NCBI GenBank assembly: GCA_964035575.1
Contig: OZ037836.1
Span: 1,054,001-1,118,000, forward strand
Length of the DNA stretch: 64,000 nt
Direction of reading: 5' to 3'
Origin: Rhynchopus sp. YZ270_cl-10
Lineage: Eukaryota
Shown here: in pieces, positions 19,190 to 61,208 of the stretch
Layout of the letters: each line of letters starts with the position of its first letter
Numbering within the stretch: position 1 is the stretch's first letter
Made by a program: the position numbers and the translations under genes
The notes under the pieces: generated by a model
Told to the model about the DNA's origin: nothing
The model's database searches: none
Seen by the model: only the letters and a program-made list of their open reading frames with translations

Positions 19190-19220
<31 letters not shown>

Positions 19221-24728: not shown

Positions 24729-24959
24729 AAGAGAAGGGAAGAAGAAAAAAAATAAATAAAGGGAAACTTACTACACCACGTTAAAGTCTTTGGCAAACAG
24801 TAAGCAGCATCAAGGGTGCCACGTACTCCTCTCCCTTTAGTATTTTTTTTTTATTCCAGAAAAAGAAATTTTTTTTTGGTGAGGCGCCTTAACCGATTCC
24901 CCGTGTTTCTATCAGTTGTCCTTGCTCAAATGAGTAATTTTTCTCTTTTCGTTTCTTTT

Positions 24960-26558
24960 TTAGTTCGCGCATCCGATAAACAGCTTATCCGCAAACCCTG
25001 GGTCGATTTCGTGCGCTACTTGGAAGAGAGCCTCACAGAGATCGTCATGCAGGTTCTCCTTGCATTTGATACTCCGCGTGAAGTATGTGTTCGGGCCGAA
25101 GAAGGCAAGCCGCAGATAGCTGATGTCATGCCTCATCACTTTAGATTTGAACGAAAACGACGTGAATTTGTCAATGTAGTAATGGTCGGAGGAATGCATC
25201 ACGGTGCTGGCCAGAAACGCGTTGGTCACCTCCGGTGTCCATCCGGGACGCAGCTTCTTGATGATGACCCGCGAGGCCATGATGATGTTGTGTGCTGTAG
25301 AGTTTCTTGCGGCAAGATGGATGAATTTGTTTGCTGCCTCGTGGTCTGCGTGGCTTTGCCCGGTGGGGCGTGCACAGTGATGGATTGGAAGTCCTTGAGC
25401 GCCGTTGTGTGACAGAATGTCGGCCATCACTGCAGCAGATCCCACTCCAATACCACCATAGGACCCATACGAGGCCGCGTTGTTCATCCACTGTGTTATG
25501 TCGTTGCTTTCTTGCGCGAGGTCCCAGCGATCCGCAGGGTCGGTGGGGTTGATCAACTGCGCGGTTCCATTCGCCCACCAGTGGATATGGAAGTGAGCGT
25601 ACAAGGAAGCGATAGTGTTCGCAATGACAACTGCCTCCTCGATGTCGTCATCCTCCGGTCCAACAACACGGTGCTCGCCAAGACCGTCATCCATGAGTAG
25701 AGTCATGCCGAGAAACTCTTGTTTATCGTGGTCCAAATCGATGGTCACGTAGTTGATGTTAATCACCGAGGTGTCTTGGAAGGGGAGACGCAAATTTTCG
25801 AACCTCAAATGCCCCGTTTCAAAGTCCATCCAGGAGATCATGCAGGTGTTTACCATTGCTTGGTACATATCGCAGCGGGTAGTTCTTCTCTTCGGCGAGA
25901 ACCGCCCGATGTGCGCATACCTCAAAAAGACGCGGAAAAAGATGTTCAAAGGGTACTCCACCCCAATGGTCGCCTGGTTGTAGAGGTACGCGCCCAGCTG
26001 CATTCCGTAGTACGAAGCAGACCTGCGCATGGCATAGGTGATGTTCAACCCCTTCGGCACCCACCGTCTGTTCAGCATATCCTTCGCGAAGGTAGCGTCC
26101 GTTGTGTCCGGGGCTTTCCCCTGCAGTGTAACCTGGGTTGTCGTGAAGGGCGCCTTCTCAAAAGGCTCGATTGGGACTGGTGTGAGATTGTTGTTCCAAC
26201 AAAGAAGCAGAAACGCGCCCAAACGGTACATCGTGAGAAGCAGAGGAACGGAGAGGAATAGACGGCGGTACGATACCGTGGAAAAGGTGGGGAGCTTTTC
26301 GAGCCAAGGGAACGACCCAAAGAGCTCGCGGAAGAGTGCAGGGTATTCCCGGGGAAGCGCTGCAAGCTCGGCGCAGCCACAAAGCAGAAAGACAGTCTTC
26401 GCAAAATTCGTCATAATGCCCCGCGGGTATGTGATGGCCACATCCTCGGACGTTGCACAAGCATAGGCAAAGGCTGGCAAATTCGGTCTCCACTGCATCC
26501 ACACAAATGCACCAACCCCTGCTGCGAAACCTACCCGATGGTCGAAGAAGTCCGACAT
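24960..26558 (-). CDS. Uncharacterised 532-aa protein with N-terminal hydrophobic segments and two H-x3-H motifs (possible metalloenzyme), copy 1
   Basis: Long intact ATG ORF. Its paralog at 57093-58691 has the same length with the frame preserved. Motifs HFHIH and HSSDH. Confidence 0.9.
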   Translation of the reverse strand: MSDFFDHRVGFAAGVGAFVWMQWRPNLPAFAYACATSEDVAITYPRGIMTNFAKTVFLLCGCAELAALPREYPALFRELFGSFPWLEKLPTFSTVSYRRLFLSVPLLLTMYRLGAFLLLCWNNNLTPVPIEPFEKAPFTTTQVTLQGKAPDTTDATFAKDMLNRRWVPKGLNITYAMRRSASYYGMQLGAYLYNQATIGVEYPLNIFFRVFLRYAHIGRFSPKRRTTRCDMYQAMVNTCMISWMDFETGHLRFENLRLPFQDTSVININYVTIDLDHDKQEFLGMTLLMDDGLGEHRVVGPEDDDIEEAVVIANTIASLYAHFHIHWWANGTAQLINPTDPADRWDLAQESNDITQWMNNAASYGSYGGIGVGSAAVMADILSHNGAQGLPIHHCARPTGQSHADHEAANKFIHLAARNSTAHNIIMASRVIIKKLRPGWTPEVTNAFLASTVMHSSDHYYIDKFTSFSFKSKVMRHDISYLRLAFFGPNTYFTRSIKCKENLHDDLCEALFQVAHEIDPGFADKLFIGCAN

Positions 26559-26591
26559 AGGAAAGGGGGGAAAGGAGGAGGAGGAAATAAA

Positions 26592-26705
26592 CTGGGTGTC
26601 AAGTCAGCAACGCGCGGGGGGAGCGAAGAGTAGTGGGGGGGAAGAGGAGAAAAAGAAAAGAGTGTGTGTTTCGAGAGGGAAACAATGTGAAAAAGAAAAA
26701 CAAAT
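26592..26705 (-). promoter_or_regulatory. Polypyrimidine tract + AG, candidate (trans-)splice acceptor upstream of the 532-aa gene
   Basis: The minus strand has long T/C tracts, then CAG about 34 nt before the ATG. The same arrangement is at 58725-58840. Confidence 0.4.
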
Positions 26706-26876
26706 CTGCTGCGGGTGGGTGGAGAATGGTTGTGGGTGTGTTGAAAAAGTAGGTGTGGGTGGGTAGGGTCTTTGGGTTACGGTCAAGATTATCCGAACCA
26801 GAGGACGCAAGCAGACATACTGCCAGAGACCCTCCACCTCGGGGAGGTGCTGCCCTGCCACCAACACACCACGTCG

Positions 26877-27818
26877 TCATTGTGCGTGTCTCTGTCGCTT
26901 CTGGCTTTGCTCGGGGGATTCGTCTCTGCTTCGTTTCGGACGTGCTTCAACCACAAGCTTCCTCAGCTTCTTGTCCTTCCTCACTTCGTTGGACACAACA
27001 CTGCTGCAGCCGGAAAGGTAAATGCTCGTCAACGAAGTGCAGTTCGAAGCAAAATACGTCATACCTCTAAAAGCGGTACTAATCTGCGCCACATTGCTGA
27101 ATGCTGACAAATCCAGGGTCGTTAAGCTGGTGCAGTTCTGAAGAAAGTGTGCACCAACTTGCGTCACGTTGTTGAGTGGAGATAAGTCGATGTTGGTTAA
27201 GCTCGTGCAGCCGTAAAGAAAGTTGTAATTAATCTGCGCCACATTGCTGAGTGCTGGCAAATCCAGGGTGGTTAAGCTGCTGCAGCTCCAAAGGAAGTGC
27301 TCACCAACCTGCGTCACATTGCTCAACCCAGAGAGGTCGATACTTGTCAACGAGGTGCAGTCTGCCAGGAAGCCGGTTCCAATGCGAGTCACAATGGACT
27401 CAGCACTGAGATCAAGTCTCGTCAACGAAGTGCCCGACAAGAAGTCATTCGGAATGACAGTCGCAACCTCCGCCTGCAGAAGCAAACACGCCACCTCAGG
27501 ATCCTCCACCCTCTCCAACGAGATTAACACCTCCTCCAACCTCTGGGCTGTGATGTCGGTCTCACCCAACGCATGAAGCTCTGCAATGGCTTCGTACTTC
27601 TGCGACTTCGTCTTCGTGAGGATGATTGTGTCACCAGCACTCAGCTGCGTCATGTCCGCTCCTTCTCCCATCGCTTCGCCACCGAAACTCATGCAAAAGC
27701 CGTCTTCAGGCAACCCCACTGCAGACGCCACCTTCCGCCGCAAGCCCTCCACTGTGTCATCCTCGCCCAGCTCGACTGTGTGCTGATTCGTGTCGAAACC
27801 CTTGATGTTCAGGTCCAT
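26877..27818 (-). CDS. Ubiquitin-like domain + LRR protein (313 aa), copy 2
   Basis: Ubl-like N-terminus (MDLNIKG...TVEGLRRKV...GDTIIL), 6 LRR units LTxLDLSxLSNVTQxxxxFLxxC, and a basic bipartite NLS-like tail. Confidence 0.9.
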   Translation of the reverse strand: MDLNIKGFDTNQHTVELGEDDTVEGLRRKVASAVGLPEDGFCMSFGGEAMGEGADMTQLSAGDTIILTKTKSQKYEAIAELHALGETDITAQRLEEVLISLERVEDPEVACLLLQAEVATVIPNDFLSGTSLTRLDLSAESIVTRIGTGFLADCTSLTSIDLSGLSNVTQVGEHFLWSCSSLTTLDLPALSNVAQINYNFLYGCTSLTNIDLSPLNNVTQVGAHFLQNCTSLTTLDLSAFSNVAQISTAFRGMTYFASNCTSLTSIYLSGCSSVVSNEVRKDKKLRKLVVEARPKRSRDESPEQSQKRQRHAQ

Positions 27819-28443
27819 GTCTTTGTTGTGGTTTGTGTTCTGATCTCTGTGTGTGGTGGTGGGGTGTGGAGTACAACAAGCCTGCAGTCCTTTTCAAGAA
27901 CCTTGCCAAAAACTGTCTGGAGAAGGGTCCCCCTCCCCGACCCACAACCCACAACCCCCGACTTCAGATCTCTCACCTCTCCACCCCCTCTCCCTGAACC
28001 AGCGCCCTTCACAGACGTTCCCTCCTCACGAAAGCAAACCCACCTTCCCCTGCCCCTCTCACGCACCCTTACCTGCCCCGTTCTGCAGAAGAAACCCGCA
28101 CAGCCTCCACGCTGTCTCCACCCACCCCACGCAAGGAAGAACGCGTAGGGTCCGGTTGGGGTCGTCTGCCCGTTTCGCAGTGTGGAGAGGCTAGTAGAGG
28201 AGCACACACTCTGCATCGCTAAGTTGGGCGGAGGACCTAAACTTGACTTGAAATACAGTGTCCCTTTGGTGCATAACTTGAAACCATGCAGTCCTACATC
28301 CATTTCGTGGTTCATATCCTAAAAAAAAGGGGGTCTTGTGGGGTGATATCCTTTTTTCCTTTTTCAAATGAAAACTTGGTTGTTTAGTTTTGACACCCGA
28401 GGATGTGCTCCACTATGCAACCCTTTTTTTTGTTTTCTCGTCT

Positions 28444-29160
28444 CAGTGTTTCCCAGCATCTCACCTAACTCTGAAAATAGGTGAGATTTTGCGGTTTTGC
28501 GGGTTTTTGTATAGGTGTGGCGAGCCCGGGCGCGCTTCGCGCGCCCGGGTCCCCACCTTAGCTCAAGTTGGGGGCCTCCGGCGGAATGTGAGAATTTCTC
28601 GGAGTTCGGCACTTCATTGATATTTGCACCAGTACATTTACAAAATAAACGGCAGTCATGGCAGGCATGACACCCAAGCGAAGCCACGGTACGCATCATT
28701 TCTAAAAATTGTTGACATAAATGTCACTGTCGTTGGAAGATTGGGGGGTCAGCTTGTTTTTGTGCCCAAAATTTCTCAGCACTGCTGACCAGGGACATTG
28801 GGAACATAGGGATTTTTGCGGAGCAAAAAAAAAATCAAACAAATGGCGCCGCAGGCGAAAAAAAATTAGGGTACAGTGTAAAAATCTATCTTTTTTACAG
28901 CACATAGTCACACACCTATTATGGTCCTAACCCTTTTTTGCGGAGCAAAAAAGGGAAAATGGCGCCGCAGGCAAAAAAAAATTGAGGTACAGCCTGGATG
29001 GTGCGGTCAGCAACCCAGTTCCCCATGGTACTCCCGTGGTTCAACCATGATTTTTTTTTTTTTTTTTTTTTTCCTGCAGGTGAGATTTCTCACCTCACTT
29101 TTTTTTTTTTTTTTTTTTTGTGAGATTTCTCACCCCAAAATCTCACCGTGGGAAACACTG
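28444..29160 (-). mobile_element. Non-autonomous derivative of the hAT element at 49290-53587
   Basis: Same TIR CAGTGTTTCCCA and same subterminal sequences. 8-bp TSD TCTCGTCT. Empty sites at ~4418 and ~60541. Confidence 0.9.
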
Positions 29161-34035: not shown

Positions 34036-35068
34036 CACCCCTCATACCCACCCAGAAATGGGTCAGAAACACCCTGTGACCCGAAAATTCATGCCAAGGG
34101 CGACTCAGAATATGAAAAAATGCAAAAAAATAGTGAAAAAGTGACTTTTTGACGGTTTTGGCCATGTTGGGTAAAATGGCCATTTTTGGTGAAAAAAATC
34201 AAAAAAACAGCAAAATTTCGACATCATGACAGCTGCTTGGGCACGAAACTACCCCAGGGAGGTCCTGTGAGTCCATTCCGACCTGTTTTGGACACTTTGG
34301 GTACTTTTTTTGGCCGTTTTTTGGTGTTTTTGTGGTCGAAATCATACCCCGTCCATACCCCGTCCAAGTCATGCGCCCTGCTTTCAGACCTACTCTGGGC
34401 CAAAAAATGGGTGAAAACCCCCGAAAAAGCACTCTGGGAACCCAGATAGTTCCAAGTATCCACCAGAAACCCACCCAAACACCTCAAAAACATGCCAGAA
34501 AAATATTTTCAAAAACACACTTTTTTCAAAAAGTTCATCTGGGCAGGTTCCATAATGACTTATTTGAAAAAGTGTGTTTTTGAAAATGTTTTTCTGACAT
34601 GTTTTGGAGGTGTTTTTGAGGGTGTGCGGTGGAAATTTGGAACTATCTGGGCTCCCGGAGTGCTTTTTCGGAGGTTTTCGCCCATTTTTTGGCCCAGAGT
34701 GGGTCTAAAAGCAGGGCGCATGACTTGGACGGGGTATGGACGGGGTATGGACAGTGCATGACGTTAACCATAAAAACGTCAAAAAACGGCCCAAACAAGT
34801 GCCTAAAGTGTCCAAAACACGTCGGAATGGACTCACAGGACCTCCCTGGGGTAGTTTCGTGCCCAAGCAGCTGTCATGATGTCGAAATTTTGCTGTTTTT
34901 TTGATTTTTTTCACCAAAAAATGGCCATTTTACCCCACATGGCCAAAACCGTCAAAAGCCACTTTTTCACTATTTTTTTTGCATTTTTTCATATTCTGAG
35001 GTGCCCTAATCATGGATTTTCGGGTCTCAGGGTGTTTCTGACCCATTTCTGGGGGGGTATGAGGGGTG
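34036..35068. repeat. ~1-kb imperfect palindrome (foldback)
   Basis: 34036-34535 is the reverse complement of 34555-35068 with scattered mismatches. Confidence 0.9.
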
Positions 35069-43094: not shown

Positions 43095-44760
43095 ATAATG
43101 CTTTCACCGTTGGTTTACAACGGTGAAACCACAAAATAAAACTACACGACAAGTCATTTACTTCACCGTCGTGCAGACACCTCCAAGGCGTATGCAGCAT
43201 GTATGTTGATAATACTATGATGTCAAAAGCTATTTTCACCCACACAGGAAAAGAAGAAAAAAAAAACGGAAATTGAAACCGCACTCCTACTTTTTCCTTT
43301 TGTTTCCCCATCCCCCGCAAACAATGAAGCAATAAAAAACAATAAAGACAAAAGGGAGAGGTTGTGGTGAAACGCACACACCTCGACCTGTCGGTGAAAT
43401 GTGGCTCTACTCCAACCCGCCCCAGAATAGAAAAAAGGAAGGTAGGGGTACGGTGTTCAATTTCCTTTTTAGCATTGCATGGAATCAGAGAAAGGAACAA
43501 AGGGGGGAGGGTTTGTTAGTGGTACGTACCTGCTAGATGAATGTAAATATGTAGACATCCAAAGTGGATGCAGATGTAAACCCCCTCCGGATGTTATTTG
43601 CTAAATTGTGAGTAAATGATAAAAGGTTTTACATTATTAAAACCGTTTTTTACAATAGAAATTAGCCCTTTAAGGACCAGAGGGGACAGTGATGTCCACG
43701 CAACCACCTAAATTGGCTTCCACTAGGACTTTTTGAAGATTTTTTTTTTTAATGAGAAGATTTTGTGCGAAATCTTTCAAAAGACGCAAGATTCGATTTT
43801 TTTTGACGCTCTCATCCCCTCTCATCCACACCCGGCATTATCACATAATAGGGTATTTTGGGTCATTTTTTGGGAATAATGTACCATTCTGACGCGCTTG
43901 AGTCATCAGAGGATTCAAACTTTGGTGTGCAGGGAACCATTTTGTACGGTCTTCAGAACGAAACTAAAATAATGGAAAATACCCGCGACTGGGCAAAGTA
44001 ACACGCGTCGTTGCAGTTCCTGACCCTGAACTGGATGTGCCTCTTCTCCGTGTATTTATTGCATTTTGTCTTTTGAGGGACATTGTACAGAAAATCTATA
44101 TCAACACGGTCAAGGTACAGAGACACTGGCAGGAGGGTGTTGGTCGACAACTTCTTCTTGCTTGGGAAACAGGCGTCTGAAAACAGATTACATGTGCGGG
44201 GGATGCGGCGTTCACCTTTGTTCAGCACCATGCCAAGTTGGCCAAAAGTCCCAAAAGCCCCAACTTTTGTACTGTCCAACCTCTGTACAATTACGGTATA
44301 TGTAGTTGGTTGGTACCTTCTCTCCATGCAGTGAGACATTATCTACACGGTGCGGTAGTCAGCAAAATGACAACCTAAATGACAACCTCAATGACATGTC
44401 ATAATTATGACAACCCTATAGGTTGTCAGTGACAACCTAGGGGTTGTCAAATGACAACCTGAGGTTGTCAAATGACAACCTATAGGTTGTCATTTGACAA
44501 CCTTATGCATGTGAAATGCCTTGCAACAGCCATTTTTATTGGAAATGTGGGAGGTTGGGGGGTTGGGAGGTTGGTGGTTACCTGTTTGATTGTTGATTGT
44601 TGAATGTCCATGCACTGTAAAAATTTATTTAAAAAAAAAGGAGGAGATGGGGGGGGTGATTTCTGTTTTTGTTGATTTCATGATGATTTGGGTCCCTCAC
44701 CCCCTTTGTAAAAATCCCGCCCATACACATATGCAGGGGTCAAGTGACTGACGTGCCTGA

Positions 44761-45693
44761 CTAGTGCCATTGAACACTCTCTTCGGAGTCCTCCTTGTTT
44801 GCCTCTGTGTCACTGGCCTCAGCAAGAGTCTCCTCAGGATCCTCAGGAGCCTCCTCAGGAACTTCGTCCTCCCCAAACACGGACATCCATGATGCCCCGT
44901 CCATTTTCACAGAGAGTGCGTTGGGGGCCCCCACGGGTATGTCCACACGAGTAATTCCCACCTGCACCATCACGGAAGTCTCCCTCGTCGAATCAAGGGA
45001 CAGAGTGCTGGGGACATCATACGTACCGTCGACCACCCCGATGCTGGCCCCGATGGCAAGGCGCTCCCGCTTCAACGCAAAGCTCAGCTTGTGACCCTGC
45101 AGCGTCGGGTCGGTGCAAAACACGGTGCAACCGTTTTCAATAAAAATTCGGTGCACTTTTCCACCCGGTGTCATCTTTTCCCCCATCACCGTGATGATAG
45201 GCCATACGGAAGCGCGGGGGCCTCTTTTGATGACCCCCTTGGCCGCCGCTGTCCCTGTTCCCTCGTTGACAATGGACGTGTACAAGCACGCCATGTCCAT
45301 GTCCCCCAGCGACGCCCCTTCCCGAACTACAAGCGCCAGACGCTTGTACGCCTCCGTCTTCTTTGCGGCGTCCGATATCCCAGGCAACTTCCGCAGCACG
45401 AGTCCGCCAAACACAGTCTCCTTCACTGCCCCTCCGTTCCCTGAGATGCGGAGGCTGTACACACCTTTGGCAGCATCAGCCTCTGCCCTGTTCTTCGCCT
45501 GTGTGATGGCAAATTTTTTGCCAAGTTCAGCTGCCACTGAGCCATCATTGGACTTGAAGTCCACCTTGAAACATTTCGAAATCAAGGCCCTCAGTGCAGG
45601 GTGACTTAAGGGGGTTGCACCGGCGGGGTTCTTCGCTTTGTACACATAAACAGTACAAAAGTCGTTTGCAATCGTCGTCTGCTTGCTTGTCAT
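44761..45693 (-). CDS. 310-aa passenger protein with acidic tail; possible GNAT-fold acetyltransferase
   Basis: Intact ATG ORF. LYTSIVNEGTGTA resembles GNAT motif A and RIFIENGC resembles motif B. The by-eye similarity is weak. Confidence 0.7.
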   Translation of the reverse strand: MTSKQTTIANDFCTVYVYKAKNPAGATPLSHPALRALISKCFKVDFKSNDGSVAAELGKKFAITQAKNRAEADAAKGVYSLRISGNGGAVKETVFGGLVLRKLPGISDAAKKTEAYKRLALVVREGASLGDMDMACLYTSIVNEGTGTAAAKGVIKRGPRASVWPIITVMGEKMTPGGKVHRIFIENGCTVFCTDPTLQGHKLSFALKRERLAIGASIGVVDGTYDVPSTLSLDSTRETSVMVQVGITRVDIPVGAPNALSVKMDGASWMSVFGEDEVPEEAPEDPEETLAEASDTEANKEDSEESVQWH

Positions 45694-45920
45694 GATATGA
45701 TGTGGTGTGGTTTTTGGATCCTGGAAAGAGGGTGCGACTAATGGGATTGCGATGGAACAAAAACGAGTGCTATGGGGGGGGGGGAGGGGGATTCATTCCT
45801 TTGTATAGATTCGCGGTAAACAAACAAACAAACAAACAAACAAATAGTGGAGCACATTCTAGAGTGGCAACACTGAACAAACAAAAAATACAACAACAAC
45901 AACAAAATGTAAACAGGCTA

Positions 45921-46526
45921 CTACTCTCCGTGCATGTTGTACATATGATTTTCTACGGCTCTCGGTGAGGAAAACACGTCCATACAAATGGGACAATGTT
46001 TCTTGGAAATATCCTCTGAGTGATTACACAAAAGATGCTGGCTAAAACCTCGCTTGGAAACATTGCGTTCGCATATGGGGCATTCCTGCCTGCATGCACA
46101 AGTAATTGAAGGGCGGTGATTTGCGTCGTAGTGACAATAGAGCTTGTGCGCGGTATTGAAATTTGTTTGTGTTCCAAGTCTGGTACAGATGGTGCATATA
46201 TAGCCTTCGCCCGCATCCTCTGATTCTGATTCTGGTTCTGGTTCTGATTTGCTTTCCACAACAGGGGGTACCCTCCATGATGGCTCCTTACACACGCAAA
46301 TCTTCTTCACCCTACCCTCATCATCAGGGTTGGACAAGAATTTTTGCCCCCACCCTGTTCGGCGTTTTATGTGTTTTCCCAGTCCAGCACGTTGCAGTCG
46401 CTGCACCAAGTTAGTGCACGCGGTTTTCCAAGTCTCATCTACTACTGTTATGCATTTGCACAGCCACAACGTATCAAACTCCCAAAGTGCGGGAAGCGCG
46501 TCCGTTAGGGGGCCCAGTGGTGACAT
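45921..46526 (-). CDS. C2H2 zinc-finger ORF, possibly the frameshifted C-terminus of the transposase
   Basis: CTIC..HYDANH, CPIC..HLLCNH and CPIC..HMYNMH. It overlaps the transposase 3' end in the +1 frame. Confidence 0.7.
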   Translation of the reverse strand: MSPLGPLTDALPALWEFDTLWLCKCITVVDETWKTACTNLVQRLQRAGLGKHIKRRTGWGQKFLSNPDDEGRVKKICVCKEPSWRVPPVVESKSEPEPESESEDAGEGYICTICTRLGTQTNFNTAHKLYCHYDANHRPSITCACRQECPICERNVSKRGFSQHLLCNHSEDISKKHCPICMDVFSSPRAVENHMYNMHGE

Positions 46527-47790
46527 TAGTTTCAATTTCGAATGCCAAGAAATCGCGTTCCATTGTATTTGGGGAGGTGCATGCCGTCCAACGCTTCCTC
46601 TCCCCATTGGCATGCTCGAACAGTTCGTCCGACACGGTCACTCTGTGTGCGTCTTCTTCATCGAACCAATGTTCGACTGAGTGCATGTACGTGCTTTTCG
46701 TAACCCCTGGATTCGCCCATTCAAGCAAATACACGGTAAGGTGGTAACACAGTAATGCGAACAAGTAATCTTTTGCGTATGGCCTCGACTCGTTCGGGTT
46801 TGGGTTTGGTGTGTGGAAGAACCTCACTGGTATGTCACTATACCGAAAGTAGTAAAGGCCCTGCATGGCCTGGCACAATATTAGTTTGCTCCCCTCATTT
46901 TCCTGAATGAGGCTGCGTAGGATAGTTCGTGACTGCGTGCCTGTCATATTGCCGTCCTGCTTACCAAGGATCTTTGTTTCTACGTCGCGGGCACCCGGTA
47001 TGGTTTTAATGAGCAAACGCATCACCCCCTTGGTATCATGCAGCATCGGAGTTAGCGTGTAACAAGGTTGCTCGAATCGCCCGGCAATGCTGCACTCGAA
47101 TCCACAGGCGTCCATTTCTTGAAGGCTCAAGCGGGTGCAGTTGTGCAGGGCAGACAATCTGTCGTCCAGGTCGGTCGCACAGAACGCACTTCTATGTCCC
47201 CCGGGGCCGACACCTTTGAAGAGACTTGCCAACTCGGCATGATCTCCCCCGATTTTGTAGTACAGGAGGGAAAATTCGAAGCCTCCCTTCCTGAGGATGC
47301 GCTCTTGAACGTTTGAGAGCTGTGGCAGAAAGGTAAAAACCCACCAGTCGTGGAAGGTGGATTTTTTTTTGTCAGCGACCGTCAAAAAGTTTGTCGCTTC
47401 AAGCCCGTTCGTCGCAGCAACTGCAAGCCTCTTCCGTGCAAGTTGGGACCTGAAGGCACTGTACGGTGAATACCCATCCCACGTGATGATAATGGTCGGG
47501 AAGTCACCGCCCAGTCGCAGGGGGAAATACTTCAGAAGCAAAGAGAGCGATTTCTGCACATCACCTACCTGAGCCTCTGCCTTATCCTTAAACGGCTTCT
47601 CCCGCTGCTGCAACGTCTTGTACGCTAGGCCCATTGACGCCCCGGTCTCAGCTTTCACCAATTTTCCGATCTCTTCGCAGTCACGCATCGACAGTCCTAG
47701 CTGGACTCTGTTGCGACCTATGATGTTCCCCACCACCCGCACTGTTTCATGATCAATTCCCATTATTATTTTTTTTTTTTGTCCTGTCAT
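46474..47790 (-). CDS. RAG1-core/Transib-like DDE transposase (~438 aa)
   Basis: Ordered motifs RVQLGLS..VKAETG..L...EK, IIITWDG (D), GGDH (D), SAFC, PMLHDTKG, MTGTQSR, TYMHSVEH and SDELFEHAN (E) parallel the RAG1 motifs RVNTFLS..VKAITG, ESCDG, GYDE, CTLC, ALHCDIG, MNGNFAR, NYFHKTLAH and SEGNESGN. Confidence 0.8.
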   Translation of the reverse strand: MTGQKKKIIMGIDHETVRVVGNIIGRNRVQLGLSMRDCEEIGKLVKAETGASMGLAYKTLQQREKPFKDKAEAQVGDVQKSLSLLLKYFPLRLGGDFPTIIITWDGYSPYSAFRSQLARKRLAVAATNGLEATNFLTVADKKKSTFHDWWVFTFLPQLSNVQERILRKGGFEFSLLYYKIGGDHAELASLFKGVGPGGHRSAFCATDLDDRLSALHNCTRLSLQEMDACGFECSIAGRFEQPCYTLTPMLHDTKGVMRLLIKTIPGARDVETKILGKQDGNMTGTQSRTILRSLIQENEGSKLILCQAMQGLYYFRYSDIPVRFFHTPNPNPNESRPYAKDYLFALLCYHLTVYLLEWANPGVTKSTYMHSVEHWFDEEDAHRVTVSDELFEHANGERKRWTACTSPNTMERDFLAFEIETNVTTGPPNGRASRTLGV

Positions 47791-48712
47791 GGATGTCCGT
47801 GTTTGGGGAGGACGAAGTTCCTGAGGAGGCTCTTGCTGAGGCCAGTGACACAGAGGCAACCAAAGAGGACTCCGAAGAGAGTGTTCAATGGCACTAGTCA
47901 GACACGTCAGTCACTTGACTCCTGCATATGTGTATGGGCGGGATTTTTACAAAGGGGGTGAGGGACCCAAATCATCATGAAATCAACAAAAACAGAAATC
48001 ACCCCCCCATCTCCTCCTTTTTTTTTAAATAAATTTTTACAGTGCAGAGACAGCAAACAACAATCAACAATCAAACAGGTAACCACCAACCTCCCACATT
48101 TCCAATAAAAATGGCTGTTGCAAGGCATTTCACATGCATAAGGTTGTCAAATGACAACCTATAGGTTGTCATTTGACAACCTCAGGTTGTCATTTGACAA
48201 CCCCTAGGTTGTCACTGACAACCTAGGGGTTGTCTCGCACCGAGGGTTGTCCTTTGACATGTCCTTGAGGTTGTCATTTTGATGACTACCGCACCGTGTA
48301 CTAGGACTTTTTGATCGATTTTTTTTTCTTTTGAAAGATTTTGAACCGATCTTTCAAATGAAGCCATTTTCGAAAACCGAAAAAACAGGTGCGCAGCCGG
48401 AATAATTTTTTTCTTCAAAAATTTCAGAAAAAAATATCAGCTCCCCTCAATTTTCCATTTTCCATTTTTCTCATTTTATTTCGATTTCTGCTCCATTTGA
48501 AAGATCTGCTCAAAATCTTTCAATTGCGGCCAGGTACGATCAAAAATATGCATCGGATCTCATTTTACCTATGGGAGAGAAGATCCTAGCAAATCGAAAA
48601 AACCGGTCGTGGTCCATAAAGGGTTAGTGAATAATAAGTGGGAGAGTAAATAATACCCGTGAAGTAAATCATAAGTGGAGGCAAATAATATCCATGGGGG
48701 TTTAATACAGTA

Positions 48713-48932
48713 CCGACCCTCCCCCGTGAAATTGTCCCCTGGGGGGAAAAGTGAGGGGGGGGCAACATCTCGTACGGCAAAAGGGGGGGGAAATTTCTCG
48801 TACTGTAGGGGGTGGCCGTTTTGGTGTGAAGAAGGGAGAGCAAAGGTTGTCCCCGCGACTCCCTTGAAATTGTCCGTGGCGGCAAAATACCGGTTTTTTT
48901 GGGGGGGGGACAATTTCACGGGGGAGGGTCGG
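48713..48932. mobile_element. Tc1/mariner/pogo-type MITE
   Basis: TIR CCGACCCTCCCCCGTGAAATTGTCCCC flanked by TA on both sides. Confidence 0.8.
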
Positions 48933-49326
48933 TACATTTTTTTTTTTTGTTGGGGAACCTATAGGGTCTGTACTCGATGTTGGCCGAAGCCTTTGTACTA
49001 CGGAAGGAATAGAGCTTTTTTTTTTTTTTTTGTAGTTTCGACAATCACCTGTCCGAGGACGGGTTCTGTGCACAAAGTCGCCCGAAGGCTAATGAATTTC
49101 AAAATTTCAAACAAAAAAACAAAAATCCCTCTTTTTTTAGAAAAATTGTTGGAATAGTGTAGTTGCCACATGTGCAAGCTAAGAGAGCCGAAATAAAAAA
49201 ATAAAAGGATACGGGTGAATTTTTTTTGCCCCCCCACGTTTCAAACCGCGAAACATTTTTTTTTGGCAAAGACAATTTTCAGCTGAAAACAGTGTTTCCC
49301 ACGGTGAGATTTTGGGGTGAGAAATC

Positions 49327-50389: not shown

Positions 50390-53077
50390 ATGAGCAATGC
50401 GGAATGGATGCGCCCAACGAAGAGAATTCGTCGCGATTACGGGGCGTGGCGTAAAACAGAAATCGAGGAGCAGGCGGAGATGCGGGGGATCGGAAAGGGG
50501 AATGGGAAATCGTACCTCAGCAACCCGAAGCTGCTCGAGGCCTGCAAAAAGTACGACGAGCGGAAGGCAGCCGCAATGCGTTCCGCTGAAACAACCGCGG
50601 CGCTCTCGCTGGCGCCGGAAGGGTCGACCTTGACCCAGACGCCGATTTCGGCGCCCCTCCCTGTCCCGGGCCTGAAGAAGCGGGCCGCCAAGCGGGAGCG
50701 GGAGTCGTACACGGTGGGGGAAATGCCTGCCGAAGCGCCCACCCCCCAAGTCTACCTTGAGGTAGACCCGAGGAGGGTGGACAGCGAGGAGAGGGAGAGC
50801 GACAGCGAGGAGGAACACGCCCGCTGCCAGCTGAAGAGGGTGGTTGTTCCTCCCGTGCTCCCCGACCCCGACACCAACCGCGTCCCTGACACCGACACCG
50901 ACACGACCATGGCAGCCCCCGCCGCAGTACCGCATGTGGACGTGGATGAGGAATCAGAGGGAAGTGCGGATGAAGGCGAAACGGGGGGTGAAGCTACTGC
51001 CTTGGGAATGAAAGCTGCGACCCTGAAGCGGTACATGTCGGAGTACCCGTGGTTGGTCGTCGGAGGCGGAGAGGCGCGCTGCAAAATTTGCAACCAGACC
51101 TTCCTGAATAAGGCTAGGTTCAAGGACCAGGTGTCTGGACATGCTGACCGGAAGAAGCACAAGGTTGCACAGGAGAAGATAGGTGTGGAGGTGCTGAAGA
51201 GCCTCCGGGACAACCCCGCCCAGCGCAAGGTGAATAGCTTCGCCCGAGCGCAGTTTTGCAAACTTATACAAACAATCTACTTCCTCGCAAGAAGCGGCGT
51301 AGCTTACACCGACAACACCTCTTCCTTTTTGACATTTTTTTCCTCTATCCTGTCAGATGCGGATATGCAGGACTACCTGACACACGATACCAACTACATC
51401 TCGCACACAGGCATAGCTGATATCTTGCGTTGCTTGCGCGAGGTTTTCATGGAGGATATCAGCGCAGAGGCGAAGGCCTCCCCTTACTTTGGTATTTCGG
51501 CTGACTGCAGCAAGGATGTCTCAAGGGTACAGCAGCTCGTTGTTGTTTTGAGATACCTGGTGAATGCGAAAGTGAAAGAACAACTCGTGCACATCGGGGA
51601 GCTGAAGGATACCACTGGCACCGGCTATGCAGACAAGATCGAGAAGGTGCTCGAAGATCTTGGTGTGGACAAGACCCGCTTGGCCGGAGTTGCGTTTGAT
51701 GGCGCTGCGGCGATGCGCAGTGAGTTGCGGGGGGCGCAGCAGCAGATTCGTACTAGGTGCAATGCAAATGCACTGTTTGTTTGGTGTTGCGCGCACAGTT
51801 TGAATCTATCATGCCTCGATTCTAAGGAAGGGAACATCCTCAAGGTCTTCACTGTACTCAACTGGCTCTGGGTGTACTTCTCTGCTTCCGCCTCCAGAGA
51901 AGATGTCCTGGACGATCTGCTGTCCGTGCCCGGGATGAAGGAGACCGAACAGGAAAACCGCAAAAAACTGGTGAGGCCCGGGGAGACACGGTGGCTGAGC
52001 ACGGGGAGGGCAACGCAGGTCGTAGTTAGCCAGTACAAGGCTATCTGCGCCGCGTTGACAAAAATATCCGCAACGGATATTGAGGGGACTTCAATACTAA
52101 ATGCCATAGTATTCCCCGAGTTCTACGCAGGACTCCTCCTCGTGCACGACGTTCTCCAAGAGTTGAACGTCCTCAGCACCACCCTCCAAAGCCGCAGTAC
52201 ATCAGTTTTTAACGTGTGCACCTCCATCGACGTCGCCATCTCCAACATTGCCACCATCGACACGCACCCCGCGCTGAGCCCCACCTACAGCACGTGGATC
52301 GCCTCTTTTGCTAACCAGACGAACAGATATCTGCATGAAAGTAACTTTGAAAAGTTTCATTCAGAAACCTCGCACCCCTACCTCAAAAACCTCTCCACGT
52401 CATTAACCGACCGGTTCGCTAATGTCAATACAGTACGACTCTTCTCTATTTTTGATGGGACACGGCTCAGGGAAGAGGGGTATGGAGATAAGCAAATAAA
52501 GCAGTTGGTTGAGTTGTTTGCTGACTATAAGCAGTTATCGTACCGCAAGTATGCGATCACCGGCGAGCTGTGCCCGAGTAGACCCGTCTACCACAAAACC
52601 GAGTTCTCGACTGTGACCAAGGTTGGTGTACCTCTCCTGCAGATTGACATTAATCATTTTACTGCGGAACAGAAGGAGGCGTTAGGGGAGCTGGGTTGCA
52701 GGCAAGCATCGGCACTTAGGGAGTGGGTTGGTATGCGACGGGTATTCTGTCAATTGCAGGGTGACATTACCGAAGGTGACGTACAGTATTTTCTTAACAC
52801 TGAGCACGGTGACAGCTACCCCACGATTAAGCAGTTGTTTCAGTTGGGACAGTGTTTGCCTGTGACAAGTGTTGAGGATGAGCGTCTCTTCTCTTTGCTG
52901 AAGCGGATAAAGACAGACCTGAGAAACAGGCTCTCTGATGAAAACCTGTTTGCCATCATGCTTTGTTCCTTGTCGGATCATGGGGACATTCTCCCCGAAG
53001 GAATTTTAGAGCGCGTGATTACAAAATTTAATGCGATAAGGCCCCGTACTCTGTTCATCAAAGCAGTGGCTGCGTGA
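50390..53077 (+). CDS. hAT-family transposase (895 aa from the first ATG)
   Basis: Zn finger CKIC..H..KKH, catalytic SADCS and FDGA, CCAH (CxxH), TRW, VEDERLFS and a C-terminal hAT dimerisation motif (IKTDLRNRL). Confidence 0.95.
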   Translation: MSNAEWMRPTKRIRRDYGAWRKTEIEEQAEMRGIGKGNGKSYLSNPKLLEACKKYDERKAAAMRSAETTAALSLAPEGSTLTQTPISAPLPVPGLKKRAAKRERESYTVGEMPAEAPTPQVYLEVDPRRVDSEERESDSEEEHARCQLKRVVVPPVLPDPDTNRVPDTDTDTTMAAPAAVPHVDVDEESEGSADEGETGGEATALGMKAATLKRYMSEYPWLVVGGGEARCKICNQTFLNKARFKDQVSGHADRKKHKVAQEKIGVEVLKSLRDNPAQRKVNSFARAQFCKLIQTIYFLARSGVAYTDNTSSFLTFFSSILSDADMQDYLTHDTNYISHTGIADILRCLREVFMEDISAEAKASPYFGISADCSKDVSRVQQLVVVLRYLVNAKVKEQLVHIGELKDTTGTGYADKIEKVLEDLGVDKTRLAGVAFDGAAAMRSELRGAQQQIRTRCNANALFVWCCAHSLNLSCLDSKEGNILKVFTVLNWLWVYFSASASREDVLDDLLSVPGMKETEQENRKKLVRPGETRWLSTGRATQVVVSQYKAICAALTKISATDIEGTSILNAIVFPEFYAGLLLVHDVLQELNVLSTTLQSRSTSVFNVCTSIDVAISNIATIDTHPALSPTYSTWIASFANQTNRYLHESNFEKFHSETSHPYLKNLSTSLTDRFANVNTVRLFSIFDGTRLREEGYGDKQIKQLVELFADYKQLSYRKYAITGELCPSRPVYHKTEFSTVTKVGVPLLQIDINHFTAEQKEALGELGCRQASALREWVGMRRVFCQLQGDITEGDVQYFLNTEHGDSYPTIKQLFQLGQCLPVTSVEDERLFSLLKRIKTDLRNRLSDENLFAIMLCSLSDHGDILPEGILERVITKFNAIRPRTLFIKAVAA

Positions 53078-56717: not shown

Positions 56718-57092
56718 AAAAAAGGACACACCTCCCCCATATATGGACCGATTTCCCATTAGCACCAATTCAGCAAAAGAGAGAAAGAAATTAGTTTTTA
56801 CGTACTTTCCTACATCTAAGATGAGAAAGTACAAGGGCGATCTATTCAGATACATCCAAGAGAAGGGAAGAAAACAAAAAGAAAAAGAAAAAGGGGAACT
56901 TACTATACTACGTTAAAGTCTTTGGCAAAACAGTAAGCAGCATTAAGAGTGCCACGTACTCCTCTCCCTTTAGTATTTTTTTTTATTCCAGAAAAAGAAA
57001 AATTTTTTTTGGTGAGGCGCCTTAACCGATTCCCCGTGTTTCTATCAGTTGTCCTTGCTCAAATGAGTAATTTTTCTCTTTTCGTTTCTTTT

Positions 57093-58691
57093 TTAGTTCG
57101 CGCATCCGATAAACAGCTTATCTGCAAACCCTGGGTCGATTTCGTGCGCTACTTGGAAGAGAGCCTCACAGAGATCGTCATGCAGGTTCTCCTTGCATTT
57201 GAGACTCCGCGTGAAGTATGTGTTCGGGCCGAAGAAGGCAAGCCGCAGAAAGCTGATGTCATGCCTCATGATCTTCGATTCGGACGAAAACGACGTAAAT
57301 TTGTCAAAATAGTAGTGGTCGCAGGAATGCATCACGGTGCTGGCCAGAAACGCGTTGGTCACCTCCGGTGTCCATCCGGGACGCAGCTTCTTGATGATGA
57401 CCCGCGAGGCCATGATGATGTTGTGTGCTGTGGAGTTTCTTGCGGCAAGATGGATGAATTTGTTTGCTGCCTCGTGGTCTGCGTGGCTTTGCCCGGTGGG
57501 GCGTGCACAGTGATGGATTGGAAGTCCTTGAGCGCCGTTGTGTGCCAGAATGTCGGCCATCACTGCAGCAGATCCTACTCCAACACCCCCATAAGAACCA
57601 TACATGGCAGCGTTGTTCATCCACTGTGTTATGTCGTTGCTTTCTTGCGCGAGGTCCCAGCGATCCGCAGGGTTGGTGGGGCTGATCAACTGCGCGGTTC
57701 CATTCGCCCACCAGTGGACATTAATGTGAGCGTACAACGCACCGATTGTGTTCGCAATGACAACTGCCTCCTCGATGTCGTCATCCTCCGGTCCAGCAAC
57801 ACGGTGCTCGCCAAGACCGTCCTCCATCAGAAGAGTCATGCCGAGAAACTCTTGTTTATCGTGGTCCAAATCGATGGTCGCATAGTTGATATTAATCACC
57901 GAGGTGTCTTGGAAGGGAAGACGCACATTTTCGAACCTCAAATGCCCCGTTTCAAAGTCCATCCAGGAGATCATGCCGGTATTTACCATTGCTTGGTACA
58001 TTTCGCAGCGGGTAGTTCTTCTCTTCGGCGAGAACCGCCCGATGTGCGCATACCGCAAAAAGACGCGGAAAAAGATGTTCAAAGGGTACTCCACCCCAAT
58101 GGTCGCCTGGTTGTAGAGGTACGCGCCCAGCTGCATTCCGTAGTACGAAGCAGACCTGCGCATGGCATAGGTGATGTTCAACCCCTTCGGCACCCACCGT
58201 CTGTTCAGCATATCCTTCGCGAAGGTAGCGTCCGTTGTGTCCGGGGCTTTCCCCTGCAGTGTAACCTGGGTTGTCATGAAGGGCGCCTTCTCAAAAGGCT
58301 CGATTGGGACTGGTGTGAGATTGTTGTTCCAACAAAGAAGCAAAAACGCGCCCAAACGGTACATCGTGAGAAGCAGAGGAACGGAGAGGAAGAGACGGCG
58401 GTACGATACCGTGGGAAACGTGAGCAGCTTTTCGAGCCAAGGGAACGACCCGAAAAGGTTGCGGAAGTGTCCAGGGTATTCCCGGGGAAGCGCTGCAAGC
58501 TCGGCGCAGCCACAAAGCAGAAAGACAGTCTTCGCAAAATTCGTCATAATGCCCCGCGGGTATGTGATGGCCACATCCTCGGACGTTGCAAAAGCATAGG
58601 CAAAGGCTGGCAAATTCGGTCTCCACTGCATCCACACAAATGCACCAACCCCTGCTGCGAAACCTACCCGATGGTCGAAGAAGTCCGACAT
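57093..58691 (-). CDS. Uncharacterised 532-aa His-motif protein, copy 2
   Basis: Intact paralog of 24960-26558. Motifs HINVH and HSCDH. Confidence 0.9.
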   Translation of the reverse strand: MSDFFDHRVGFAAGVGAFVWMQWRPNLPAFAYAFATSEDVAITYPRGIMTNFAKTVFLLCGCAELAALPREYPGHFRNLFGSFPWLEKLLTFPTVSYRRLFLSVPLLLTMYRLGAFLLLCWNNNLTPVPIEPFEKAPFMTTQVTLQGKAPDTTDATFAKDMLNRRWVPKGLNITYAMRRSASYYGMQLGAYLYNQATIGVEYPLNIFFRVFLRYAHIGRFSPKRRTTRCEMYQAMVNTGMISWMDFETGHLRFENVRLPFQDTSVININYATIDLDHDKQEFLGMTLLMEDGLGEHRVAGPEDDDIEEAVVIANTIGALYAHINVHWWANGTAQLISPTNPADRWDLAQESNDITQWMNNAAMYGSYGGVGVGSAAVMADILAHNGAQGLPIHHCARPTGQSHADHEAANKFIHLAARNSTAHNIIMASRVIIKKLRPGWTPEVTNAFLASTVMHSCDHYYFDKFTSFSSESKIMRHDISFLRLAFFGPNTYFTRSLKCKENLHDDLCEALFQVAHEIDPGFADKLFIGCAN

Positions 58692-59009
58692 AGGAAAGGG
58701 GGGAAAGGAGGAGGAGGAAATAAACTGGGTGTCAAGTCAGCAACGCGCGGGGGGAGCGAAGAGTAGTGGGGGGGAAGAGGAGAAAAAGAAAAGAGTGTGT
58801 GTTTCGAGAGGGAAACAATGTGAAAAAGAAAAACAAATCTGCTGCGGGTGGGTGGAGAATGGTTGGGTGTGTGTTGAAAAAGTAGGTGTGGGTGGGTAGG
58901 GTCTTTGGGTTACGGTCAAGATTATCCGAACCAGAGGACGCAAGCAGACATACTGCCAGAGACCCTCCACCTCGGGGAGGTGCTGCCCTGCCACCAACAC
59001 ACCACGTCG

Positions 59010-59924
59010 TCATTGTGCGTGTCTCCGTCGCTTCTGGCTTTGCTCGGGGGATTCGTCTCTGCTTCGTTTCGGACGTGCTTCAACCACAAGCTGGCTCAGC
59101 TTCTTGTCGTTCCTCACTTCGTTGGACACAACACTGCTGCAGCCGGAAAGGTAAATGCTCGTTAACGAAGTGCAGTACGCAGCAAAGTAAGTAGTACCAT
59201 AAGTAGTGACACAAATCGACGTCACATTGTGGAGTGGTGATAAATCTAGGGTGGTTAAGCTGGTGCAGTTCTGAAGGAAGCCTGCACCAACCTGCGCCAC
59301 GTTGTTGAGTGGAGATAAGTCGATGTTGGTTAAGCTCTTGCAGGCGACAAGAAAGCTGCGTTTAATCTGCGCCACATTGCTGAGTGGTGATAAATCGACG
59401 CTGGTTAAGCTCGTGCATCCGCAAAGAAAGCTGTCACCAACCTGCGTCACATTGCTCAACCCAGAGAGGTTGATACTTGTCAACGAGGTGCAGTGGGCCA
59501 GGAAGTTGAGTCCAATGTGAGTCACAATGGACTCAGCACTGAGATCAAGTCTCGTCAACGAAGTGCCTCCCAAGAAGTCATTCGGAATGACAGTCGCAAC
59601 CTCCGCCTGCAGAAGCAAACACGCCACCTCAGGATCCTCCACACTCTCCAACTTCTCGGCTGTGATGTCGGTCTCACCCAACGCATGAAGCTCTGCAATG
59701 GCTTCTTGCTTCTGCGTTTTCGTGAGGATGATTGTGTCACCAGCACTCAGCTGCGTCATGTCCGCTCCTTCTCCCATCGCTTCGTCTCCGAAACTCATGC
59801 AAAAGCCGTCTTCAGGCAACCCCATTGCAGTCGCCACCTTCCGCTGCAAGCCCTCCACTGTGTCATCTTCACCCACCTCGACTGTGTGCTGATTCGTGTC
59901 GAAACCCTTGATGTTCAGGTCCAT
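59010..59924 (-). CDS. Ubiquitin-like domain + LRR protein (304 aa), copy 3
   Basis: Intact paralog with 6 LRR units and an NLS-like tail. Confidence 0.9.
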   Translation of the reverse strand: MDLNIKGFDTNQHTVEVGEDDTVEGLQRKVATAMGLPEDGFCMSFGDEAMGEGADMTQLSAGDTIILTKTQKQEAIAELHALGETDITAEKLESVEDPEVACLLLQAEVATVIPNDFLGGTSLTRLDLSAESIVTHIGLNFLAHCTSLTSINLSGLSNVTQVGDSFLCGCTSLTSVDLSPLSNVAQIKRSFLVACKSLTNIDLSPLNNVAQVGAGFLQNCTSLTTLDLSPLHNVTSICVTTYGTTYFAAYCTSLTSIYLSGCSSVVSNEVRNDKKLSQLVVEARPKRSRDESPEQSQKRRRHAQ

Positions 59925-60809
59925 GTCTTTGTTGTGGTTTGTGTTCTGATCTCTGTGTGTGGTGGTGGGGTGTGGAGTACAACAAGCCTCAGTCCTTTTT
60001 CAAGAACCTTGCCAAAAACTGTCTGGAGAAGGGTCCCCCTCCCCGACCCACAACCCACAACCCCCGACTTCAGATCTCTCACCTCTCCACCCCCTCTCCC
60101 TGAACCAGCGCCCTTCACAGACGTTCCCTCCTCACGAAAGCAAACCCACCTTCCCCTGCCCCTCTCACGCACCCTTACCTGCCCCGTTCTGCACAAGAAA
60201 CCCGCACAGCCTCCACGCTGTCTCCACCCACCCCACGCAAGGAAGAACGCGTAGGGTCCGGTTGGGGTCCTCTGCCCGTTTCGCAGTGTGGAGAGGCTAT
60301 AGAGGAGCACACACTCTGCGTCGCTAAGTTGGGCGGAGGACCTAAACTTGACTTGAAATACAGTGTCCCTTTGGTGCATGACTTGAAACCATGCAGTCCG
60401 ACATCCATTTCGTGGTTCATATCCTAAAAAAAAAGGGGTCTTGTGGGGTGATATCCTTTTTTCCTTTTTCATATGAAAACTTGGTTGTTTAGTACAGACA
60501 CCCGAGGATGTGCTCCACTTTTCAACCCCATTTTTGTTTTTCTCGTCTCGAAACCTTTTGGGTGATGCGAGTACAGCATATAAAGTGGGAGTGATAGTGT
60601 GAACAACACCACTGGGATGTTGAACAACAGATATCATATCTTTCCACCAAAAAGCTGTGAAAGAAACTAGAAAAGGGGGAGGGGGGAGGGAGGGGAAAGG
60701 TGAAGTTGATAGTGCAAGACAACACCCTAGGTATAACCTAGGAACTGAAGTCCCAAAGAAGGGACTCTCAGAGCCCTCTCTCTCGGAGTGAAAAATATTT
60801 TCATCATAT

Positions 60810-61024
60810 GGGTGGCTTTTTTTTGCCCCCCCACGTTTCATTTCACGAAACATTTTTCCGCGGCAAAGACAATTTTCAGCTTTAAAAAAAAAAAAAAAAA
60901 AAATTCCCCTGACAGGGCCTGTGCTCGAAAAAAAAATTTTTTTTTTCTTTCCAGCTGAAAATTGTCTTTGCCGCGGAAAAATGTTTCGTGAAATGAAACG
61001 TGGGGGGGCAAAAAAAATTCACCC
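60810..61024. mobile_element. MITE of the 49213-55171 family
   Basis: GGGTG...CACCC termini with the same TIR sequence. ATAT TSD. Confidence 0.8.
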
Positions 61025-61208
61025 ATATGCAATCAATAAATTGATAGTATATGGTGAGGGATCAAAAAATGTCCCCATCTTTCTTTTTACATGTTTTGCA
61101 AAGAAAGAGGAAGATGGGAATAGGATGACCCTAAGCTGTTGTGCTTTGTCACTAAAAACTATAAACTAAAAACAAAAAACAAAAAACAAAAAAGCATTTT
61201 CATCATAT

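What the first reader, a model, noticed from the sequence alone, without database searches (positions are those of the whole stretch)
44346..48298. RAG1/Transib-like transposon with RSS-heptamer-like ends and extra genes in a protist-type genome
Seen: both ends begin CACGGTG, one mismatch from the V(D)J RSS heptamer CACAGTG. The internal ORF carries, in the right order, matches to RAG1-core motifs: the RV..LS...VKA.TG segment, D at 47476-47478 (TWDG), D at 47242-47244 (GGDH), LHD, YMH...H and E at 46615-46617 (DELFEHAN). Established: RAG1, Transib and Chapaev/CMC transposases share this catalytic core and CAC termini; Transib and RAG-like elements normally make 5-bp TSDs. Inference: this may be a distinct lineage. 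The flanks share only TA, the TIRs are very long, no RAG2-like kelch gene is visible, and two other co-oriented ORFs are present.
Basis: partly seen in the sequence, partly recalled or inferred. Interest (0 to 1): 0.9.

Follow-up and report, generated by a model that had tools for sequence, protein, structure and literature searches.

The report
Diplonemid RAG1-fold transposon, TA target
A 4-kb jumping DNA element, likely from a marine diplonemid protist, carries an enzyme predicted to fold like the antibody-gene shuffler RAG1, but it duplicates only a two-base target, has three zinc fingers that likely grip its ends, and likely represents an undescribed branch of RAG-related transposons rather than a close RAG ancestor.

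Summary
The element is real: 3,953 bp, CAC ends, 547/512-bp inverted repeats. An empty site in 4 of 4 sequencing runs shows a 2-bp TA duplication; most other flanks also end in TA. The predicted structure of the intact 618-aa protein matches RAG1 best (Z 14.7, 380 residues), with HzTransib, P-element and ProtoRAG close behind. The proposed D, D and E are invariant in the family. Two corrections: this copy has a 14-nt deletion, so one 'extra gene' is the transposase's own zinc-finger tail (two genes, not three); and the RSS likeness stops at CAC (no nonamer, no nonamer-binding domain). The family has 41 representatives; all five named clusters are diplonemid transcripts. Intact copies are 98.5-99.8% identical, so it spread recently. 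It fits the published CMCT group (CACTA-Mirage-Chapaev-Transib). The closest described lineage by ends and target is fungal ESTA. No sequence link to any described lineage was found, and no phylogeny with references could be built. Verdict: likely a new lineage of a known kind, testable in vitro, not a special RAG ancestor. ORF2 remains an orphan.

The parts
44344..44345 (+). left copy of the TA target-site duplication
   Evidence: empty-site joint 44343->48299 in 4 of 4 runs (table 5); flanks printed
44346..44892 (+). left terminal inverted repeat, 547 bp, begins CACGGTG; its inner part holds the last 43 codons of ORF2
44368..44502 (.). left subterminal array of the 8-mer TGACAACC, 11 copies; the inner 8 alternate in orientation with a 21-22 bp period; likely transposase binding sites
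   Evidence: 20 of the window's 23 exact 8-mers lie in the element's two ends; binding is inferred
44761..45693 (-). ORF2, 310 aa, acidic tail, orphan; preceded by a pyrimidine-rich stretch and AG that looks like a splice acceptor
   Evidence: cluster of 14 members; no relatives outside its own copies
45921..46526 (-). transposase gene, 3' piece (residues 418-618): CxC...CxC module, acidic linker, three C2H2-type fingers (about 45930-46196)
46525..46526 (.). site of a 14-nt deletion in this copy that shifts the transposase frame
   Evidence: table 4 (3 of 3 covering runs carry the 14 nt); P0013 on 7 contigs reads through
46527..47763 (-). transposase gene, 5' piece (residues 1-412): RAG1-like DDBD, RNase H-like and helical zinc-binding insertion domains; D96 at 47476-47478, D174 at 47242-47244, E383 at 46615-46617
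47787..48298 (-). right terminal inverted repeat, 512 bp, with its own TGACAACC array; carries an inverted copy of the ORF2 3' end
48299..48300 (+). right copy of the TA target-site duplication

Best explanation
This is a cut-and-paste DNA transposon with long CAC-ended inverted repeats and a 2-bp TA duplication, whose 618-aa transposase (frameshifted in this copy) is predicted to have the RAG1/Transib fold and likely defines an undescribed diplonemid lineage of the CMCT group. How it likely works: (1, inferred) both genes are read from host polycistronic transcripts, using splice-acceptor-like signals upstream of each ATG. (2, inferred) The transposase has no nonamer-binding domain; its three C-terminal C2H2 fingers likely bind the TGACAACC arrays at 23-157 bp from each end, while the core reads the terminal CAC. 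(3, inferred from RAG, HzTransib and ProtoRAG) D96-D174-E383 nick the end and leave a hairpin on the flank. (4, shown as outcome) Strand transfer with a 2-bp stagger at TA, less often CA/TG, gives the duplication. (5, shown) Near-identical intact copies and many different flanks mark a recent spread; this copy would need a transposase supplied in trans. ORF2 is most likely family-specific cargo or a fast-evolving accessory gene, not a RAG2.
For: Empty site in 4 of 4 runs. Of 27 contigs in the loose-end rows shown, 19 have flanks ending in TA, 7 in A preceded by consensus C, 1 in TG. AlphaFold2 model pLDDT 74, pTM 0.66: D96 ends the first strand, D174 follows a later strand, E383 lies in a helix after a helical insertion. 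Foldseek: 41 PDB matches at E<=0.001, every listed row RAG1 down to rank 40, then HzTransib. VIA-align: RAG1 Z 14.7, rmsd 4.9, 380 aligned, model 8-417 on RAG1 460-1000; HzTransib 13.2; ProtoRAG 12.3. ESM Atlas first hits RAG1, 0.94. LH and H(3)H motifs conserved; CxxC kept in 5 of 22 members. D2-E spacing 195-212 in 15 of 15 complete members against 206-214 for Transib (PMC1131882). 41 representatives form one deep family; 5 of 28 clusters looked up carry names, all Rhynchopus or Lacrimia transcripts. Six full-length copies are 98.5-99.8% identical to P0013.
Against: No phylogeny with reference lineages was possible, so 'undescribed lineage' is not shown; ESTA, Lanisha, Chapaev and Mirage proteins were not compared directly. 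The PDB holds no CACTA, Chapaev or ESTA structure (own knowledge), so RAG1 on top locates only the wider group; P-element transposase scores Z 12.5-12.7, within 1 of RAG1 in the wide search (13.5). The first Cys of the C(2)C motif is Ser in this element and in 17 of 22 members. Catalytic residues were not superposed residue by residue. The flank counts come from unpaired contigs, 5 rows were hidden, some contigs belong to related families, and runs X6 and X7 may share insertions. Only one site has both flanks. Finger-to-motif binding and hairpin chemistry are untested.
Confidence: 0.68

Rival explanations
1. It is a far-diverged member of ESTA, the CMCT lineage with TA duplications described in fungi.
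For: ESTA has TA TSDs and RAG1 likeness found only by HHpred (PMC12730594); all 52 ESTA entries seen begin with CAC.
Against: All 52 entries seen are fungal, mostly 6.6-13 kb, 44 begin CACC and none CACGGTG. No fungal protein is named among the hits of the whole-library search. TA duplication has arisen separately in a true Transib (Oriex), so it is a weak link.
Confidence: 0.13
2. It is a divergent Transib/RAGL-clade element proper, on the line toward RAG, that switched to a TA target.
For: Best structural and language-model hits are RAG1. By eye, the S-x-E-x-x-E-x-x-N motif, the GGD context and the 77-residue D1-D2 spacing match basal Transibs printed in the supplement of PMC9435367 (hand count 77 and 79). 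One member, P0051, has a CxxC...H....C tail like the RAGL C-terminal tail. Transib TSDs can vary.
Against: No 5-bp TSD, no nonamer, no NBD. The family profile does not detect CthTransib_0066 (1 of 40 shuffles scored as high locally, 4 of 40 globally), nor RAG1 or HzTransib by sequence. The LH-to-TG segment is about 30 residues shorter than in the Transibs seen. Zinc knuckles are common in transposons (own knowledge).
Confidence: 0.13
3. It belongs outside CMCT, near P or Kolobok transposases, and the RAG1 hit reflects the shared insertion-domain DDE fold.
For: P-element transposase Z 12.5-12.7; the LHDxK motif recalls the P-element HxxK context (recalled).
Against: P aligns fewer residues at lower identity (322-332, 8%) than RAG1 (376-386, 13-15%); no D(2)H motif; CAC ends, H(3)H and CxxC in basal members are CMCT marks (PMC12730594); Foldseek lists no P entry in its top 50 ranks.
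Confidence: 0.04
4. The element has three genes, as first read, with a separate zinc-finger protein.
For: Two overlapping ORFs in the window sequence.
Against: All covering contigs and the intact cluster members read through as one 618-aa protein; diplonemid relatives at 46% identity have the same fused tail.
Confidence: 0.02

Closest known systems
ESTA (CMCT clade; PMC12730594)
   Same: CAC termini, TA duplication, RAG1 likeness seen only by remote methods.
   Different: Fungal, mostly 6.6-13 kb, mostly CACCAC ends; here 3.95 kb, CACGGTG, diplonemid relatives, C2H2 tail. Protein-level relation untested.
Transib (HzTransib; basal 'bacterial' and subgroup I/II elements of PMC9435367)
   Same: Fold (Z 10.5-13.2), D2-E spacing about 208, S-x-E-x-x-E-x-x-N motif, CAC ends, about 4 kb.
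   Different: 2-bp not 5-bp TSD; no RSS-like nonamer; 0.5-kb TIRs with an 8-mer array; no NBD-like region; extra 200-aa Cys/His tail; second gene; no detectable sequence similarity.
RAG1 / ProtoRAG / AanRAGL
   Same: Best structural match over DDBD to C-terminal domain (RAG1 460-1000).
   Different: No NBD, no N-terminal RING/Chapa region, no recognisable RAG2, no 12/23 spacing, 2-bp TSD.
Chapaev / Chapaev3
   Same: CAC..GTG ends; LH and His motifs.
   Different: 3-4 bp TSD and an N-terminal Chapa zinc finger (PMC4079192, PMC4411706) are absent.
EnSpm/CACTA
   Same: CAC end, short TSD, subterminal repeat array and a second co-oriented gene (architecture recalled, not from a call).
   Different: No Transposase_21 or Plavaka Pfam hit in 25 + 17 members; ORF2 shows no TnpA-like match.

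Membership tests
CMCT clade | DDE triad in an RNase H-like fold with helical insertion | tested here: met
   residue-level superposition not available
CMCT clade | C(2)C motif after the second D | tested here: inconclusive
   SxxC in this element and 17 of 22 members, CxxC in 5 of 22 including the deepest-branching group under midpoint rooting
CMCT clade | H(3-4)H motif before the E | tested here: met
   H361-x3-H365 in 15 of 15 complete members
CMCT clade | CA..TG termini and 2-5 bp TSD | tested here: met
Transib | 5-bp TSD | tested here: not met
   2-bp TA; exceptions exist within Transib
Transib | RSS-like TIR with heptamer and nonamer | tested here: not met
   heptamer 6 of 7; nonamer 2-5 of 9 at six spacers on each end
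Transib | D2-E spacing 206-214 | tested here: met
   208 here; 195-212 in 15 members
Transib | significant sequence similarity or clade with Transib/RAG1 | tested here: inconclusive
   none found, but a published Transib also misses Pfam RAG1; only one reference protein was on hand; no tree
RAGL transposons | RAG2-like kelch gene | tested here: inconclusive
   ORF2 has no Pfam, PDB or Atlas hit and no periodic GG/W pattern; its fold model failed (pLDDT 36)
RAGL transposons | NBD and N-terminal region upstream of DDBD | tested here: not met
   model residue 6-10 aligns to RAG1 459-461; relatives start at the same place
ESTA | TA TSD and CAC termini | tested here: met
ESTA | transposase groups with ESTA in the CMCT tree | not testable with these tools
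   supplement sequences are cut before the transposase; no ESTA protein was retrieved
Chapaev | 3-4 bp TSD | tested here: not met
Chapaev | N-terminal Chapa zinc finger | tested here: not met
   no Cys/His cluster before D96
EnSpm/CACTA, Plavaka | match to Transposase_21 or Plavaka profiles | tested here: inconclusive
   no such hit (25 of 44 families shown; the rest single-member, E>0.089)
Lanisha, Mirage | protein-level grouping | not testable with these tools
   only the name and a GenBank number were seen

The most novel reading that the evidence does not exclude
The family is a deep, separate branch next to Transib/RAG, the first in Discoba, still mobile, that replaced the nonamer-binding domain by a C2H2 array and recruited its own accessory subunit (ORF2) in parallel to RAG2. 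It would be a living outgroup for how RAG's end recognition, target geometry and partner dependence evolved.
Probability: 0.15. Interest if true: 0.8.

Novelty: new variant of a known kind. Interest (0 to 1): 0.55.

Why it matters
RAG-related transposases have been described mostly in animals, fungi and one stramenopile alga. A diverse, recently expanded family in diplonemids would extend the group to Discoba, where DNA transposons are little studied. Intact intronless copies make it easy to test whether a RAG1-fold enzyme keeps nick-hairpin chemistry while using zinc fingers for end binding and a 2-bp instead of 5-bp target stagger. An active native transposon could also be a genetic tool for diplonemids. 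It does not, on present evidence, sit closer to V(D)J recombination than other CMCT lineages.

Tried and rejected
No whole genome is held for the window, so copies could not be paired. Sequence searches of the core found nothing in Pfam, PHROGs, NCBIfam (118, 119) or PDB sequences (11, 30, 57, 85: zinc fingers only); the Pfam blank is not diagnostic, since CthTransib_0066 also misses RAG1. A profile search meant to reach Chapaev/ESTA overflowed its candidate list and returned 1 known member: no information. Related loci: none in viral contigs (67) or prokaryote genomes; metagenomes none, then one 1,026-bp piece without ends. Motif scans for reference Transibs: 2 loci in genomes, one real; none in viral contigs. 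Viral fold library: no match at E<=0.001. ORF2: single-sequence fold failed, Atlas blank, second homolog P0047 is a frameshifted copy. Complex prediction of ORF2 with the transposase: no verdict, score 0.00. No RNA holder listed for this stretch. The family tree (90) is the quick tree of 23 members, first 520 residues, no outgroup; 10 of 20 inner branches open. A 12/23 reading of the ends was rejected: the left end has one extra 12-bp motif copy, but the first motif lies at position 23 on both ends. A 3-bp TAC duplication was rejected: it would leave unequal ends, and CA/TG flanks show that TA is not part of the element. Earlier findings of the scan: none. Literature: searches listed no paper on Transib/CMCT elements in diplonemids; the D. 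papillatum genome paper names TATE, MULE and Helitron only and its 7 supplement files hold none of Transib, RAG1, CACTA, EnSpm, Chapaev; the supplement of PMC9435367 names no diplonemid or euglenid. Repbase Reports and subscription journals were not searchable.
Full report
Observation. The element spans 44346-48298 (3,953 bp). Its first 16 bases are a perfect inverted pair and the inverted repeats extend to 547 and 512 bp, 482 of 493 aligned bases identical. Each end holds an array of TGACAACC; 20 of the 23 exact copies in the window lie there. The left repeat includes the last 43 codons of ORF2 and the right repeat an inverted copy of them, so the long repeats likely arose by copying one end onto the other (inference).

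Target site. In all 4 runs laid, contigs join 44343 to 48299, skipping one TA plus the element (table 5; shorter sides 21-37 letters). These are paralogous empty sites in a repeat that is far deeper than the element. A second laying on the left end showed 27 contigs with foreign flanks in the rows given: 19 end in TA, 7 in A after a consensus C, 1 in TG (5 rows hidden; flanks unpaired; some contigs come from related families). The duplication is 2 bp, TA preferred, CA/TG likely second. Depth over the terminal 30 bases is several times the internal depth in two runs, which hints at non-autonomous relatives.

Genes. The window shows three co-oriented ORFs. Searches returned a 618-aa protein that joins two of them. 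Contigs in the 3 runs that cover 46525 all carry 14 more bases (table 4), and the window pieces equal residues 1-412 and 418-618 of P0013. So this copy is frameshifted or misassembled, and the family has two genes. P0013 lies on 7 contigs in a cluster of 19; six full-length members are 98.5-99.8% identical to it. ORF2 has 14 cluster members and no other relative.

Family and host. The whole-library search gave 41 representatives, 23 at E<=1e-30. Of 28 clusters looked up, 5 carry names, all transcriptome proteins of Rhynchopus euleeides or Lacrimia lanifica; that these are diplonemids is my own knowledge. The rest come from unnamed assemblies and metagenomes. The host is therefore likely a diplonemid, and relatives are transcribed.

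Fold. AlphaFold2 on an 8-row alignment gave pLDDT 74. Foldseek ranks RAG1 chains first, then HzTransib (E 9.5e-4), ProtoRAG, ISCth4 and Hermes. VIA-align gives RAG1 Z 14.7 (rmsd 4.9, 380 aligned), HzTransib 13.2, P element 12.7, ProtoRAG 12.3, ISCth4 7.5, Hermes 5.8; the unbiased wide search gives RAG1 13.5, P 12.5, ProtoRAG 12.3, HzTransib 10.5. The model begins where RAG1's DDBD begins (459-461), so there is no nonamer-binding domain. Residues 418-618 were barely tested by these searches; Pfam and PDB profiles mark C2H2 fingers there below curated cut-offs. ESM Atlas features also point to RAG1 (0.94; shuffled proteins reach 0.9 in 4-10 of 100).

Motifs. D96, D174 and E383 are invariant; so are H175, C195 and H365; H242 and H361 nearly. 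Spacing is 75-85 (D-D) and 195-212 (D-E). The first Cys of C(2)C is Ser in 17 of 22 members; conserved H207 and C209 could replace it as zinc ligands (inference). A CxC...CxC module follows the core in all full-length members.

Against the RSS reading. CACGGTG or its complement occurs 23 times in the window, no nonamer follows, and the first 8-mer lies at position 23 on both ends.

Comparison. PMC12730594 (passages; supplement places 1-2 and 7-58 of 88 for ESTA, sequences cut short) defines the CMCT clade by C(2)C, H(3-4)H, CA..TG ends and 2-5 bp TSDs, and describes ESTA with TA TSDs and RAG1 likeness by HHpred. PMC1131882 (passages) gives 5-bp TSDs and D-E 206-214 for Transib. The preprint 10.64898/2026.08.26.747230 (abstract, sections 14 and 20; its Table S2 not seen) reports a Transib with an apparent TA TSD. 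PMC9435367 (whole main text; supplement passages and part 14 of 24) reports RAGL in Aureococcus and basal Transibs; one of these, CthTransib_0066, was fetched and shows no significant similarity to the family profile, although motif contexts look alike by eye. PMC4079192, PMC4411706, PMC10629977, PMC10161547, PMC8245031 and PMC8101967 were seen as passages only. Figures with motif alignments and trees were not visible and bear on the placement.

Mechanism. Shown: ends, TA duplication, gene structure, conserved triad, recent copies. Predicted: RAG1-like fold. Inferred: finger binding to the 8-mer array (three fingers cover about 9 bp; own knowledge), nick-hairpin cleavage as in RAG, HzTransib and ProtoRAG (PMC10629977), expression through splice-acceptor-like signals. 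ORF2's role is open; cargo or a fast-evolving accessory gene is most likely, since sister families yielded no homolog.

Verdict. A real, recently spread transposon that works like Transib/RAG1 but fails Transib, RAGL and Chapaev membership on TSD and domain tests; most likely an undescribed diplonemid lineage of CMCT, with ESTA and basal Transib as open alternatives. New variant of a known kind; interest 0.55.

Noticed in passing
window 50390-53077 (+): Intact-looking 895-aa hAT-type transposase ORF (Dimer_Tnp_hAT E 2e-7, DUF4371 E 1e-6); ends not mapped.
   Followed up: partly
window 24729-28444 and 56858-60549: 3.7-kb duplication, 94% identical, each copy with a 532-aa ORF without a Pfam family (one copy scanned) and a ubiquitin-like plus LRR gene.
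   Followed up: partly
window 34036-35068: 1,033-bp fold-back element with CACCCC ends and no clear 2-bp duplication; partial copy at 18934-19219; MITE-like, possibly of a CAC-ended family.
   Followed up: partly
window 60805-61029 and 48710-48935: Two small (about 225 bp) inverted-repeat elements, MITE-like.
   Followed up: no
window 43900-44345 and 48299-48560: The element sits in a very high-copy repeat with several subfamilies that share the motif at the insertion point; a 129-aa frame at 43953-44342 has no Pfam hit.
   Followed up: partly
protein P0051, residues 586-599: One family member has a CxxC-x4-H-x4-C tail in place of the C2H2 array, resembling the RAGL/Transib subgroup I C-terminal tail; tails seem swapped within the family.
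   Followed up: partly
L002 (CthTransib_0066): The published 'bacterial' Transib lies on a 3,240-bp contig of coverage 0.19 in a metagenome-assembled genome and carries stops; host contamination is possible.
   Followed up: no
window 19676-20781 (+): Cys-rich repeats followed by a weak VWA domain match (E 0.009), likely a spliced host surface-protein gene.
   Followed up: no
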